64,000 nt of DNA from NCBI GenBank assembly GCA_964486045.1, contig CAZALK010000001.1, positions 1 through 64,000 of the forward strand. Reading direction: 5' to 3'. The notes under the pieces were generated by a model, which made no database searches, had not been told where the DNA came from, and saw only the letters and a program-made list of their open reading frames with translations. Positions within the stretch are counted from its first letter, which is position 1. The number at the start of each line of letters is the position of its first letter. Shown piece by piece: positions 28,421 through 30,938 of the stretch. The position numbers were made by a program, and so were the translations under genes. The stretch comes from an uncultured archaeon (GTDB taxonomy: Archaea; Asgardarchaeota; Lokiarchaeia; Sigyniarchaeales; SOKP01).

Positions 28421-28894
28421 TTACTTAATCTGTTCCAGATAATCTATAATTTTCTCCAAAACCATTTTCTTAAAATCTATCCTGTTAGCGCTAAAAAGAA
28501 ATCTTTTAACTTCAGTTTCACTTTCTATTGAGAAACCAATAAAAACTGTTCCAACAGGTTTTTCTGGAGTGCCACCTGTTGGTCCGGCAATACCACTAAC
28601 ACCAATACCTATTTCAACATTGGAAAGCTTCTTTATATTTTTTGCAAGCTGTTTTACAACCTTTTCAGATACAGCTCCATGAATTTCTATGGATTTAGGT
28701 TTTACTTTCAACAAATCTATTTTTGCTTGATTACTATAGCATACTATTCCTCTTTCAAATACATTTGAAGCTCCAGAAATATTAGTTATCATATGTGAAA
28801 CATAGCCTCCTGTACAAGACTCTGCGATTGCAATCTTTAGATTTTTTATAGTGAAATTTTCAATAATTTTCTCTAATCTTTCTAGTTCATCCAT
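28421..28894 (-). CDS. pncC: CinA C-terminal domain / NMN deamidase
   Basis: AESCTGG, GAVS, SGIAGPTGG..KPVGTV. Confidence 0.9.
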   Translation of the reverse strand: MDELERLEKIIENFTIKNLKIAIAESCTGGYVSHMITNISGASNVFERGIVCYSNQAKIDLLKVKPKSIEIHGAVSEKVVKQLAKNIKKLSNVEIGIGVSGIAGPTGGTPEKPVGTVFIGFSIESETEVKRFLFSANRIDFKKMVLEKIIDYLEQIK

Positions 28895-28902
28895 ATTTTC
28901 AA

Positions 28903-29346
28903 TTACCTTTGAATTTCAAAATTTTTACCGCAAGAATTACAAAACATTGCTTGTTCATTGACATTGTTACCGCAATAAGGACAATGCCATTTATGAGACT
29001 TTTTTTGTAGATCTATAAGCTTATAAACTTCTGGTTCTTTTTCACCAAATGGTTTAAAATCCAAATTTTTCTCACTAACTATTTGATAACATCTAGGACA
29101 GTTTTGCTTCTGTTTAGCGATGTAAAATAGAAGATAAGGGTTAAGACACATAAAACCCCACATAAAAAAAATCAGTAAAAAAAGCTCAGTAAAAATTGAA
29201 AGAAATGTTATCGTTATAATAATTAATGTTGCTAGCAAACTAAATGCAAAAACGCCAAATATTTTATTATTGAATTCTGACCGAGTAGGAAACACATTCA
29301 TCAAACAATTCTTACAAAACTGCATATCATCTAAATTTTGAGGCAT
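28903..29346 (-). CDS. LITAF-like Zn-binding membrane-hairpin protein with a C-terminal zinc ribbon
   Basis: CKNC-hydrophobic hairpin-CPRC, then CPYCG...FCNSCG. Confidence 0.65.
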   Translation of the reverse strand: MPQNLDDMQFCKNCLMNVFPTRSEFNNKIFGVFAFSLLATLIIITITFLSIFTELFLLIFFMWGFMCLNPYLLFYIAKQKQNCPRCYQIVSEKNLDFKPFGEKEPEVYKLIDLQKKSHKWHCPYCGNNVNEQAMFCNSCGKNFEIQR

Positions 29347-29497
29347 TTATCCTAATCTAAATATTTAAAACGAGTTATAATTATTAATATAAATTAATAA
29401 CAAATAAAAACAAATAAAAAAATTATATCCTAAAGGGTTAGAATTTAATACACAAATAACCTAATTATTCTTAATAAAGTACAATAAAGTGAAATAT

Positions 29498-30064
29498 ATG
29501 GGAAAAGATAATGTTTCTAAAGGATTTGTCTTTAAGATCACTGTCCTCGATAATTAATCGATAACGATCATAGTCATCGGTGATGGAGCCGTTGGGAAGA
29601 CAAGTCTAATTAAAAAATATACCAAAGGAAGTTTTGAAAAAGATTATATTAAAACAATTGGGGCGCAGTTTAGCAAGTACGATGAGGATATTGAAGGAGA
29701 TAATTGTAAGTTGTTTTTTTGGGATATAGCAGGTCAACGCGAATTTGATTTCATGCGACCTACGTTTTATAAAGGTTCTAAAGCTGCAATTATTGTTTTC
29801 AGTCATACCGATGAAGAAAGCTTTAATCAAATCCCTGAATGGCATGAAGATATTAAAAAACATGTAGGAGATCTTCCGATTGTTCTGTTTGGTAATAAAA
29901 TAGACTTAGTAGATGAGAATTCCAAGAAGGAAAAAATTCAAGAGATTATGAAGGAAAAGGGATTTCTGGGGTATTTTAAAACTTCAGCAAAAACAGGATC
30001 AGGGGTATATGAAGCATTTCAAGCAATAATAAAGAATTTATATAACAAATACAAAGAAGCTTAA
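29498..30064 (+). CDS. Rab-like small GTPase interrupted by a 30-nt insert carrying an in-frame TAA (candidate intron; otherwise pseudogene or assembly artefact)
   Basis: ATG 29498 MGKDNVSKGFVFKITV-[LDN*SITIIV]-IGDGAVGKT...TIG...WDIAGQ...GNKID...TSAK; removing 30 nt gives an intact 178-aa GTPase. Confidence 0.85.
29542..29571 (+). other. Candidate archaeal BHB/BHL-type mRNA intron
   Basis: GATC/GATC 4-bp helix, 3-nt bulge ACT, in-register intron hairpin; excision restores K-I-T-V-I-G-D. Confidence 0.55.
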
Positions 30065-30066
30065 AA

Positions 30067-30366
30067 ATGTATGATGCTGTTGACCAGAGCTATCCGAAAA
30101 TCTTGTTTTTCTCATCTACTCACTGTGCACCATGTGCCCCTGTAGCAGAAATGCTAAAAAGAATAAACATCTCTATGTTTGGTAAAAAATTGCGAATAGA
30201 AAAAATATCAATCGATCTTGAAGAAAATCACCACTATACTCAAGAATATCGGATCACTTCAGTTCCAACATTGATAATAGCAGATAAAAGGATATCAGTA
30301 AACATCGCAGAAGAAGAAATTATTGATGCGATCTTATACGCATTTATTACATCAGTAAAAGTATGA
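30067..30366 (+). CDS. Thioredoxin-fold protein
   Basis: CAPC motif and cis-Pro motif SVPTL. Confidence 0.85.
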   Translation: MYDAVDQSYPKILFFSSTHCAPCAPVAEMLKRINISMFGKKLRIEKISIDLEENHHYTQEYRITSVPTLIIADKRISVNIAEEEIIDAILYAFITSVKV

Positions 30367-30455
30367 AAAATAAAGGATGAATAATAAATTTAAAATAAAA
30401 TAAGGATAATAATTACGAAGTAAAGTTTAACAAGAAAGAGGGAAGGTGATAAATT

Positions 30456-30938
30456 ATAGACAGACAATTACTTTCTAAAATTTTAGCTCAAATGAGAAAA
30501 AATTTAAAAGATGGTAAATCTATTGGAGATATGAAGGTTGGAGCTTTACTGGCCTTAGGTCATCAACTTGAAGCCATTTTTTACTACTTGGGGCACGAAC
30601 TTGGAAGTACTTTAAAAATAAAGCAAGTTAAGGATATATTGCTAATTCCTGGTGAGTTAAAAGAAATAATTTCTCAGTTCAACCTTGGTGAAGTTGAAAT
30701 TACGGAAGCAACCACAGAGGTCATTCAACTTAAAATGAAGGGCCATTCATCCATTAAAGATTTAATTAAAAAAGGAATTAAAGCAACAGGAAGTTTTTGT
30801 TCATTTGAGGCAGGTTTACTGGCAGGAATCGTGGAGAAATTAAGTGATCAGCATTGTTTTGCTCAAGAGGTTGGGTGTAGTCTACAAACAGGAAAAGATC
30901 ATTGTGAACTTATGGTGGTATTAACGCAGAAGGATTGA
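30456..30938 (+). CDS. V4R-domain (Bet3/TRAPP-related fold) protein
   Basis: FYYLGHELG, FCSFEAGLLAG, EVGC....CE; probable ATA start at 30456 behind SD GGTGA (first ATG is 30492). Confidence 0.85.
   Translation: MDRQLLSKILAQMRKNLKDGKSIGDMKVGALLALGHQLEAIFYYLGHELGSTLKIKQVKDILLIPGELKEIISQFNLGEVEITEATTEVIQLKMKGHSSIKDLIKKGIKATGSFCSFEAGLLAGIVEKLSDQHCFAQEVGCSLQTGKDHCELMVVLTQKD

What the first reader, a model, noticed from the sequence alone, without database searches (positions are those of the whole stretch)
29498..30064. Candidate tRNA-endonuclease-type (BHB/BHL) mRNA intron in an Asgard Rab-like GTPase gene
Seen: the gene reads FVFKITV-[LDN*SITIIV]-IGDGAVGKT, so 30 extra nt with an in-frame TAA (29555-29557) sit just before the P-loop, and the rest of the gene is intact. 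GATC 29536-39 pairs with GATC 29566-69 (4-bp helix). After a 3-nt bulge (ACT, 29540-42) an in-register hairpin follows: G43-C65, T44-A64, a 2x2 mismatch, TCGAT/ATCGA and a 5-nt loop. Cutting after the 2nd nt of each bulge (ACT and ATA 29570-72), as the archaeal splicing endonuclease EndA does, removes exactly 29542-29571. The result is ttt aag atc ACA gtc atc ggt gat = FKITVIGD, a full 178-aa GTPase. Known: EndA/RtcB splice BHB introns in tRNA, rRNA and crenarchaeal cbf5 mRNA, and some EndA types accept relaxed BHL motifs. Inference: splicing may gate expression of a eukaryote-like GTPase, conceptually similar to non-spliceosomal HAC1/XBP1 splicing. Caveats: the exon-side stem is poor (relaxed motif only), and the insert also resembles a degenerate 30-bp tandem duplication, which could be a read-merging artefact.
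Basis: partly seen in the sequence, partly recalled or inferred. Interest (0 to 1): 0.9.

Follow-up and report, generated by a model that had tools for sequence, protein, structure and literature searches.

The report
tRNA-type mini-intron in Asgard GTPase mRNA
A 30-base insert with a stop codon interrupts a Rab-like GTPase gene of a Lokiarchaeial (Promethearchaeota) archaeon; comparison with relatives shows it is very probably an intron cut from the messenger RNA by the tRNA-splicing enzyme, a kind of splicing published for only one other archaeal coding gene.

Summary
Window 29498-30064 encodes a small GTPase whose frame is broken by a 30-nt insert (29542-29571) carrying TAA 29555-57.

The insert is not an artefact or a decaying gene. 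The single-copy ortholog carries an insert at this spot in 18 distinct sequences: 13 with 30 nt (class I) and 5 with an unrelated 29-nt, frame-shifting insert whose junction lies 2 nt downstream (class II).

- Cutting after the second nucleotide of each 3-nt bulge, the EndA rule, restores K-I-T-V-I-G-D-G in all 18, as in about 70 intronless orthologs.
- In class I the 4-bp central helix is paired in every sequence, and 7 of 9 hairpin pairs show compensatory changes.
- RNAalifold predicts the same fold independently.
- Exon 1 changes only synonymously, and exon 2 has dN/dS of 0.03-0.1.
- The genome encodes an (alpha-beta)2 EndA with the broad-specificity loop lysine, and RtcB.
- At least seven other genes here, including the single-copy RNA polymerase A' gene, carry 30-nt inserts of the same architecture.

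A regulatory "gating" role is untested.

This scan has reported similar mRNA introns on other DNA; the searched literature has only cbf5 and one Haloferax 5' UTR case.

The parts
29489..29492 (+). Shine-Dalgarno-like GTGA 6 nt upstream of the ATG
   Evidence: GTGA (or GGTG in one sequence) is conserved 5-6 nt upstream of the ATG in nearly all orthologs, intron-bearing ones included. No such element precedes the putative internal start.
29498..29541 (+). Exon 1: MGKDNVSKGFVFKI plus the first two bases (AC) of the Thr codon
   Evidence: The KGFVFKIT codons vary only at synonymous third positions across the 13 class I sequences.
29536..29539 (+). Central helix, 5' strand H(a), GAUC (exon)
   Evidence: Pairs with 29566-69 and is paired in 13/13 class I sequences, with G-C to G-U and C-G to U-G changes. 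The Lys and Ile third positions are AAG-AUY in 13/13 class I genes against 12/63 intronless genes.
29540..29542 (+). 5' bulge ACU; predicted cut between 29541 and 29542
   Evidence: Invariant ACU in 13 sequences and left unpaired by RNAalifold.
29542..29571 (+). Intron, 30 nt
   Evidence: Absent from about 70 orthologs. Its removal gives a 178-aa GTPase with KITVIGDGAVGKT.
29543..29565 (+). Intron hairpin h': 9 stacked positions with a 2x2 internal loop and the 5-nt loop AAUUA
   Evidence: 7 of 9 pairs show compensatory double changes. 0/500 shuffles reach the observed percentage paired, covariation score or count of doubly changed cells (12/500 for the count of pairs with a double change), and slid controls score far lower. 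RNAalifold predicts it independently.
29555..29557 (+). In-frame TAA at the 3' edge of the hairpin loop
   Evidence: A stop (TAA or TAG) sits at the same codon in all 13 class I sequences.
29566..29569 (+). Central helix, 3' strand H(b), GAUC (intron)
29570..29572 (+). 3' splice-site triplet AUA; predicted cut between 29571 and 29572. It is not closed by an exon-exon helix (relaxed HBh' form).
   Evidence: The first A is invariant and the other two positions vary (AUA, AUU, AGA, AAA). No outer helix appears.
29572..30064 (+). Exon 2: third base of the Thr codon, then VIGDGAVGKT... to the stop codon. Ras/Roc/Arf-type G domain.
   Evidence: Pfam Ras, Roc and Arf are precomputed for the orthologs. 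dN/dS is 0.03-0.1 between intron-bearing orthologs.

Best explanation
The 30 nt at 29542-29571 are an archaeal splicing-endonuclease (EndA) intron of the relaxed bulge-helix-loop (HBh') type in the pre-mRNA of a Rab-like small GTPase. In the transcript, exon bases GAUC (29536-39) pair with intron bases GAUC (29566-69) to form the 4-bp central helix. The 5' splice site lies in the 3-nt bulge ACU, which is closed by the intron hairpin. The 3' splice site lies in the triplet AUA next to the helix. The heterotetrameric (alpha-beta)2 EndA cuts after the second nucleotide of each triplet. RtcB then joins ...AAG AUC AC to A GUC AUC GGU..., giving the Thr codon ACA and the complete beta1-strand/P-loop sequence KITVIGDGAVGKT of a 178-aa GTPase. 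The excised 30-mer is probably circularised. Unspliced mRNA would yield only a 19-aa peptide. Shown here: the sequence anatomy, conservation and covariation of the fold, selection on both exons, exact restoration of the ortholog sequence, and presence of the enzymes. Inferred: the cleavage and ligation themselves, and that removal is constitutive.
For: (1) The ortholog is single-copy in all 54 genomes of the genus. An insert occurs at this site in 18 distinct sequences, counting the window. There are 13 class I inserts of 30 nt and 5 class II inserts of 29 nt. All other orthologs read KITVIGDG directly. (2) Class II shifts the frame, has an unrelated hairpin (perfect 9 bp in one genome), and uses helix UCAC/GUGG or UCAC/GUGA with bulges AGA and ACU or AUU. 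The same rule, cutting after the second bulge nucleotide, gives ACA G|UU AUU GG = KITVIG exactly. Only RNA-level excision at BHB positions explains both classes. (3) Covariation in class I: the central helix is 100% paired and 7 of 9 hairpin pairs have double compensatory changes. 0/500 shuffles reach the observed pairing, covariation score or count of doubly changed cells, and slid controls collapse. RNAalifold predicts the same helix, bulge and hairpin. (4) Selection: exon 2 dN/dS is 0.04 between G000 and G013 at dS of about 1, and 0.03-0.1 for the other intron-bearing pairs. Exon 1 KGFVFKIT shows only synonymous changes, with the ATG and SD retained. Synonymous exon positions that form the helix are fixed in the way the model needs. 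(5) Enzymes: two EndA genes are present. The alpha subunit is most similar to the Aeropyrum pernix catalytic subunit and has KPR aligned to the specific-loop Lys44. The beta subunit has Ser where the aligned M. jannaschii enzyme has its His. RtcB is present. Kaneta 2018 (PMC5829648) reports that Asgard archaea have (alpha-beta)2 EndA with this L1 loop and that the loop allows cleavage of relaxed motifs. (6) Same-architecture 30-nt inserts break other genes of this genome. One is the only RNA polymerase A' gene, at GHFGH|IELARP, so the organism must remove such inserts. (7) Presence is patchy among close relatives: intron-bearing G049 is sister to intronless G019 at 94% nt identity. This fits precise intron loss or gain.
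Against: Class I lacks the outer exon-exon helix, so its 3' site is not in a closed bulge. Single-sequence folding prefers other structures in 12 of 13 class I sequences, with the BHB fold up to about 4.6 kcal/mol above the MFE (one sequence gave an inconsistent value). The G000 fold is no more stable than shuffles. In some species a TTG follows the stop, and public annotations call an N-terminally truncated MTIIVIGDG... protein, so internal initiation is not formally excluded there as an extra route.
Confidence: 0.85

Rival explanations
1. Two ORFs. The stop ends a 19-aa upstream peptide, and the GTPase is made from an internal or near-cognate start (ATA 29561-63 here, TTG in some relatives) as an N-terminally truncated MTIIVIGDG... 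protein.
For: Gene callers annotate such truncated proteins in relatives. The 3' part of the insert plus exon 2 mimics a beta1 strand (T-I-I-V-I-G).
Against: G000 and G020 have only ATA at that codon, G069 and L033 have a stop (TAG) there, and class II has no start at all and a stop 3 codons before the P-loop frame. No SD precedes it. Exon 1 keeps its ATG, SD and KGFVFKIT under purely synonymous change. The 'I' of T-I-I varies to R and K, as an unpaired bulge base would. This reading does not explain the hairpin covariation.
Confidence: 0.05
2. Programmed translational bypassing, as in phage T4 gene 60. The ribosome takes off at Val GUC 29543-45 and lands on GUC 29573-75, skipping 27 nt.
For: In G000 and most class I sequences matching Val codons sit 30 nt apart, a hairpin with a stop lies between them, and the product would be the same KITVIGDG.
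Against: The take-off and landing codons do not match in G020, L034 and G069 (GUU against GUA). In class II no matched codon pair gives the P-loop frame, and the required Val codon GUU exists only after ligation. The stop lies 3 codons after the take-off site rather than next to it. Exon-intron helix covariation and the 3-nt bulge geometry are not needed for bypassing.
Confidence: 0.03
3. Pseudogene. A small insertion or degenerate tandem duplication inactivated the gene, which is now decaying.
For: An in-frame stop 19 codons into the gene, and 18/30 identity between the insert and the following 30 nt.
Against: It is the only ortholog in each genome. There are no other defects in 163 codons. 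dN/dS is 0.03-0.1 at dS up to saturation among intron-bearing lineages. The insert has persisted and covaried in 18 distinct sequences. Essential genes in the same genome carry inserts of the same type.
Confidence: 0.03
4. Assembly or read-merging artefact.
Against: Diverged versions of the insert occur in many independent assemblies and sample sources. TRF finds no tandem repeat.
Confidence: 0.01

Closest known systems
BHB/BHL intron of the cbf5 (pseudouridine synthase) pre-mRNA in Crenarchaeota (Watanabe 2002; Yokobori 2009, PMC2738675)
   Same: A short intron in a protein-coding mRNA, often with a relaxed motif, predicted to be cut between the 2nd and 3rd bulge residues. The host has a hetero-oligomeric EndA. 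The distribution is patchy, with gains and losses among relatives.
   Different: A different gene (small GTPase) and a different phylum (Promethearchaeota/Lokiarchaeia). The intron has a uniform 30-nt architecture (4-bp helix strand, 23-nt hairpin, bulges). Two unrelated introns occupy sites 2 nt apart in orthologs. The cbf5 intron has cDNA and in vitro proof; this one has none.
[quoted passage not shown]
   Same: The same recognition geometry and the same presumed enzymes. The host lineage is rich in non-canonical introns; aragorn finds only 31 tRNA genes here, 20 of them with predicted introns.
   Different: The intron lies in a coding sequence, so the splice must be exact to the nucleotide to keep the frame. 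There is no tRNA body to assist recognition.
BHB intron in the 5' UTR of Haloferax volcanii HVO_1309 (Schwarz 2020, PMC7714728)
   Same: EndA substrate in an mRNA.
   Different: That intron lies in the untranslated leader, not in the coding sequence, and has a canonical BHB cut by a homodimeric EndA.
HAC1/XBP1 unconventional cytoplasmic splicing (IRE1 cleavage; ligation by RtcB in metazoa, per PMC8718801; yeast Trl1 from general knowledge)
   Same: Works alike in outline: endonuclease cuts at small stem-loop signals in an mRNA, tRNA-ligase-type joining follows, and the reading frame changes after removal.
   Different: The nuclease is different (IRE1, not EndA) and is stress-regulated. No evidence here for regulation. 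This is not a family member.
Phage T4 gene 60 translational bypass
   Same: A short stop-containing hairpin gap inside a coding sequence.
   Different: The defining matched take-off/landing codons are lacking in class II and in 3 class I sequences. See the rival explanations.

Membership tests
Archaeal EndA-dependent BHB/BHL intron | 4-bp central helix between the two splice sites | tested here: met
   GAUC/GAUC is 100% paired in 13 class I sequences with wobble substitutions. UCAC/GUGG or UCAC/GUGA in class II.
Archaeal EndA-dependent BHB/BHL intron | 3-nt bulge at the 5' splice site, closed by an intron helix h' | tested here: met
   ACU bulge followed by a covarying 23-nt hairpin. AGA plus a 22-nt hairpin with 9 stacked positions in class II.
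Archaeal EndA-dependent BHB/BHL intron | 3-nt bulge at the 3' splice site, closed by an outer exon-exon helix h (strict hBHBh') | tested here: not met
   Class I, including this window, has no outer helix, so it is the relaxed HBh'/BHL form. Class II has 5 of 6 outer pairs. The relaxed form is an accepted subclass for (alpha-beta)2 EndA with the L1 loop (PMC5829648).
Archaeal EndA-dependent BHB/BHL intron | Cutting after the 2nd nucleotide of each bulge yields the functional product | tested here: met
   All 18 sequences give KITVIGDG, identical to about 70 intronless orthologs, and this includes the 29-nt frame-shifting class.
Archaeal EndA-dependent BHB/BHL intron | Host encodes an EndA able to cut relaxed motifs, and an RtcB ligase | tested here: met
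   Alpha subunit with the Pfam catalytic domain and KPR aligned to A. pernix K44. Beta subunit with Ser where the aligned M. jannaschii enzyme has His. RtcB. This rests on homology only; activity was not tested.
Archaeal EndA-dependent BHB/BHL intron | Spliced RNA and excised (circular) intron observed | not testable with these tools
The spliced-junction pattern was not found in JGI contigs, which is uninformative.
Ras-superfamily small GTPase (Rab-like) | G1 GxxxxGK[ST], G3 DxxGQ, G4 NKxD and G5 SAK motifs in order | tested here: met
   GDGAVGKT, WDIAGQ, GNKID and TSAK appear in the spliced translation. Pfam Ras/Roc/Arf on orthologs.
T4 gene 60-type translational bypass | Matched take-off and landing codons flanking the gap, with a stop right after take-off | tested here: not met
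   GUU against GUA in 3 class I sequences. No usable pair in class II. The stop lies 3 codons downstream.

The most novel reading that the evidence does not exclude
This intron is one member of a genome-wide population of uniform ~30-nt EndA-type mini-introns in protein-coding genes of this Promethearchaeota lineage. They include essential genes (RNA polymerase A', an EF-2-like GTPase) and at least three small GTPases. If so, exact mRNA splicing by the tRNA-splicing machinery is routine in close prokaryotic relatives of eukaryotes, and introns are still being gained and precisely lost between sister species. A further, less likely layer is that splicing is conditional and gates GTPase production.
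Probability: 0.55. Interest if true: 0.9.

Novelty: new member of a known kind. Interest (0 to 1): 0.8.

Why it matters
In the searched literature, splicing of an archaeal coding sequence by the tRNA endonuclease is established for one gene only (cbf5), plus one 5' UTR case (PMC7714728, PMC2738675). Here a eukaryote-like small GTPase of an Asgard archaeon needs such splicing, and so apparently do other genes of the same genome, the RNA polymerase A' gene among them.

This has three consequences.
- Current annotations of these genes are wrong: public records call truncated proteins starting MTIIVIG... or MGDGAVGK....
- Interrupted genes in Asgard genomes should not be scored as pseudogenes.
- Mature mRNAs of these genes would require an enzymatic splicing step in the lineage closest to eukaryotes. 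That bears on how intron-containing genes and RtcB-type mRNA ligation could predate the spliceosome.

It also gives concrete substrates for biochemistry: a relaxed (class I) and a near-canonical (class II) intron in the same gene.

Tried and rejected
- **Spliced junction search:** an exact-pattern scan of JGI metagenome contigs for AAGATCACAGTCATYGGYGATGG found nothing. This is uninformative.
- **Single-sequence thermodynamics:** the MFE of G000 is not the BHB and has z = -0.40. Only 1 of 13 class I sequences has the BHB as its MFE. One sequence gave a constrained energy below its MFE, which is an inconsistency of my script, so those energies are rough.
- **ORF-only genome-wide intron scans:** motifs whose removal fuses open frames were no more frequent than frame-shifted controls, because closely spaced gene boundaries swamp the signal.
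- **Stop-island scan:** only modest enrichment (L=30: 42 against 27.8 expected).
- **Motif-length histogram against shuffled sequence:** a weak bump at 28-31 nt (ratio 1.29-1.44 against about 1.2).
- **Consequence for intron counts:** I do not claim a number of introns, only individually checked cases.
- **My first strict scanner missed the second GTPase intron** because it required the two closing hairpin pairs. The intron was found by hand.
- **Rfam:** no family matches 29300-30200.
- **Intron as a repeat:** blastn-short of the intron against the genome shows it is not a repeated element.
- **Class I and class II introns** show no detectable sequence homology to each other.
- **The sigma-70 promoter/terminator scan** is not meaningful for an archaeon.

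Full report
**What is there.** The + strand of window 29498-30064 carries a small-GTPase gene. Its frame reads MGKDNVSKGFVFKITV, then LDN*SITIIV, then IGDGAVGKT..., and stays open to the stop at 30062-64. The in-frame TAA is at 29555-57.
- GATC 29536-39 and GATC 29566-69 can pair.
- ACT 29540-42 and ATA 29570-72 follow the two strands.
- Between them lies a 23-nt hairpin: G-C, U-A, a 2x2 mismatch, five pairs, and the loop AAUUA.
- Deleting 29542-29571 gives a 178-aa protein with FKITVIGDGAVGKT.

The genome (G000) has 5.18 Mb in 45 contigs and about 73 small-GTPase hits. Relatives are labelled Promethearchaeota/Lokiarchaeota MAGs. Close paralogs all read F(K/R)FK(I/V)xV(I/V)GD(G/S)xVGKT without any insert.

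**Is it more than chance?** Taken alone, no. A loose helix-bulge-hairpin scan gives about 22 hits in 120 nt of this AT-rich sequence. The MFE of the region is a different fold with an ordinary energy (z = -0.40). TRF sees no tandem repeat. The case rests on comparison.

**Orthologs.** All 54 genomes of the genus have exactly one ortholog at 78-93% identity. Most read KITVIGDGAVGKT directly. Nine genomes, and further metagenome contigs, carry an insert at this spot. I collected 18 distinct sequences.
- Class I, 13 sequences, has a 30-nt insert like the window's, always with a stop at the same codon.
- Class II, 5 sequences, has a 29-nt insert with an unrelated hairpin, for example UCUACUGAA-AAAG-UUCAGUAGA with a perfect 9 bp. 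Its helix is UCAC/GUGG or UCAC/GUGA and its bulges are AGA and ACU or AUU.

Class II shifts the frame, so exon 1 and the P-loop lie in different frames. No start codon precedes the P-loop, and a stop sits three codons upstream of it. Cutting after the second nucleotide of each bulge gives ACA G|UU AUU GG, which reads K-I-T-V-I-G and matches the intronless orthologs. The Val codon GUU exists only after ligation. Two unrelated inserts with junctions 2 nt apart are therefore both resolved to the same protein by one rule, the EndA rule. Among 80 species representatives searched by the search for related loci, the only insert sizes seen were +30 (5) and +29 (4), and 71 had none.

**RNA structure.** Results on the 13 class I sequences:
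- The central helix is paired in 100% of cells, with G-C to G-U and C-G to U-G changes.
- 7 of 9 hairpin positions show compensatory double changes.
- Overall 86% of cells are paired.
- No shuffle out of 500 reaches the observed pairing, covariation score or number of doubly changed cells. For the count of pairs with a double change, 12 of 500 shuffles do.
- Sliding the partners by 1-3 columns drops pairing to 15-69%.

RNAalifold, given no model, predicts the same structure: helix 30-33/60-63, a 3-nt bulge, and a hairpin with an internal loop and a 5-nt loop. The bulge ACU is invariant. The 3' triplet is A followed by two variable bases (AUA, AUU, AGA, AAA). In class I no exon-exon helix closes the 3' site, so this is the relaxed HBh' form. 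In class II five of six outer pairs form.

**Selection.**
- Exon 2 has dN/dS = 0.04 between G000 and G013 at dS of about 1, and 0.03-0.1 for other intron-bearing pairs.
- In exon 1 the codons for KGFVFKIT vary only at synonymous third positions, and the ATG and the GTGA (SD-like) element are kept.
- Synonymous exon positions that belong to the central helix are fixed as the model requires. AAG-AUY occurs in 13/13 class I genes against 12/63 intronless genes. AUC occurs in 5/5 class II genes against 5/63 intronless genes. These sequences are related, so this is not an independent statistic.
- By contrast the insert 'codons' are highly variable and hold one or two stops.

The gene is therefore functional, both exons are translated in the ortholog frame, and the insert is not translated.

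**Enzymes.** G000 has two EndA genes of about 200 aa.
- One is most similar to the catalytic subunit of the Aeropyrum pernix heterotetramer. In the printed alignment KPR matches A. pernix residues 44-46, so it includes the specific-loop Lys44.
- The other is most similar to the M. jannaschii enzyme but has Ser where that enzyme has a His in the aligned segment. From memory, this is the catalytic His.

This is the (alpha-beta)2 architecture. Kaneta et al. 2018 (PMC5829648) report that Asgard archaea have (alpha-beta)2 EndA with the L1 loop, and that the loop lysine confers cleavage of relaxed HBh'/BHL motifs. RtcB is present. Yokobori 2009 (PMC2738675) describes the same pairing of relaxed motif and hetero-oligomeric EndA for cbf5.

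**Context in the same genome.** Notes of other first-stage readers claimed many ~30-nt BHB inserts in this genome. I checked some of them myself.
- The only RNA polymerase A' gene has a 30-nt insert with a TAA at C13:44101-44130. It has helix GGAC/GUCU and a 9-bp, 5-nt-loop hairpin, and its removal restores GHFGH|IELARP.
- A second GTPase has one at C17:96895-96924, restoring FK|IIVIGD.
- A third has one at C1:354340-354369, restoring WDFAGE|KKFRLL.
- A thiolase has one at C3:186175-186204.
- An EF-2-like gene has a TAA inside its GTP_EFTU match.
- Three further inserts of this type turned up in the same scan; they are listed under Noticed in passing.

All the resolved inserts share one architecture: 1 bulge base, a 23-nt hairpin, a 4-nt helix strand and 2 bulge bases, 30 nt in total. 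An essential single-copy gene cannot be a pseudogene, so the organism must remove such inserts. My attempts at a genome-wide count were inconclusive.

**Evolution.** On a gene tree of 27 orthologs, intron presence needs at least 7 changes. Intron-bearing G049 is sister to intronless G019 at 94% nt identity, and intronless G062 sits with G000 and G013. Class I hairpins are strongly diverged between clades. An old intron with repeated precise loss is therefore the simplest reading, but gains are not excluded.

**Rivals.** The four alternatives are weighed under Rival explanations.
- Internal initiation fails in class II and in four class I sequences, and it leaves exon 1 conservation unexplained.
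- Gene-60-type bypass fails where the Val codons do not match and has no usable codon pair in class II.
- Pseudogene decay is contradicted by the selection data above.
- An assembly artefact is contradicted by the independent assemblies.

**What is not shown.** No RNA or read data could be examined. The junction was not found in JGI contigs. Cleavage of the relaxed class I 3' site is inferred from enzyme type only.

**Novelty.** Full-text searches found no report of BHB introns in Asgard protein-coding genes. Schwarz 2020 names the cbf5 mRNA intron as the only other such example reported in archaea besides their own 5' UTR intron. A 2026 preprint on Asgard tRNA introns does not treat mRNAs. 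This scan has already reported similar mRNA introns on other DNA and in other windows of this genome.

Noticed in passing
L040:1714-1743 (G000 C13:44101-44130, + strand): The only RNA polymerase A' gene of the genome has a 30-nt insert with an in-frame TAA. It has helix GGAC/GUCU, bulges AUU and AAA, and a 9-bp/5-nt-loop hairpin. Removal restores GHFGH|IELARP.
   Followed up: partly
G000 C1:354340-354369 (+), outside the window: A second small GTPase (C1:354181-354681) has a 30-nt insert with TGA and TAA in switch II. It has helix GGAG/CUCU and bulges AAU and AAA. Removal gives WDFAGE|KKFRLL with the spacing seen in paralogs.
   Followed up: partly
G000 C17:96895-96924 (- strand): A third Rab-like GTPase has a canonical 30-nt BHB insert (helix UUUC/GAAA, bulges AAG and ACA, 4/4 outer pairs) 6 nt upstream of the equivalent site. 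Removal restores FK|IIVIGDPAVGKS.
   Followed up: partly
G000 C3:186175-186204 (+); C13:92030-92743 (+); C7:186723-186752 (-); C5:195271-195300 (+); C1:759271-759300 (+): A thiolase (TGA inside its Pfam match), an EF-2-like GTPase (TAA inside its GTP_EFTU match), an AMP/thymidine-phosphorylase-like gene and two AIR-synthase-like genes carry stop-containing inserts. The inserts are of the same 30-nt architecture, except that the EF-2-like insert's geometry was not resolved. The last three gene names are from motifs read by eye.
   Followed up: partly
whole genome G000: aragorn finds only 31 tRNA genes. 20 have predicted introns and several are mistyped (Pyl, Stop). This fits the heavily interrupted tRNA genes described for some Asgard lineages.
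   Followed up: no
P0001, P0005, P0008, P0019, P0021, P0052, P0073 (public orthologs): Public annotations of intron-bearing orthologs call N-terminally truncated proteins (MTIIVIGDG..., MIVIGDG..., MGDGAVGK...) from fortuitous TTG, GTG or ATG codons. Exon 1 is missed.
   Followed up: yes
window 28421-30938 and loci L031-L039: Conserved neighbourhood: CinA and a Zn-ribbon membrane protein upstream on the opposite strand; a 99-aa thioredoxin-like gene and a DUF2507/V4R gene directly downstream of the GTPase.
   Followed up: no
G000 C2:161068-161433 (-) and C6:93952-94416 (+): Two further GTPase-like frames have a single in-frame stop (TGA; TAA). The first also lacks its N-terminal half and looks like a fragment. 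No BHB geometry was examined.
   Followed up: no
whole genome G000: Counts of helix/bulge/hairpin motifs by length show a weak excess over block-shuffled sequence at 28-31 nt (ratio 1.29-1.44 against about 1.2 elsewhere). This hints at many more mini-introns but proves nothing.
   Followed up: partly
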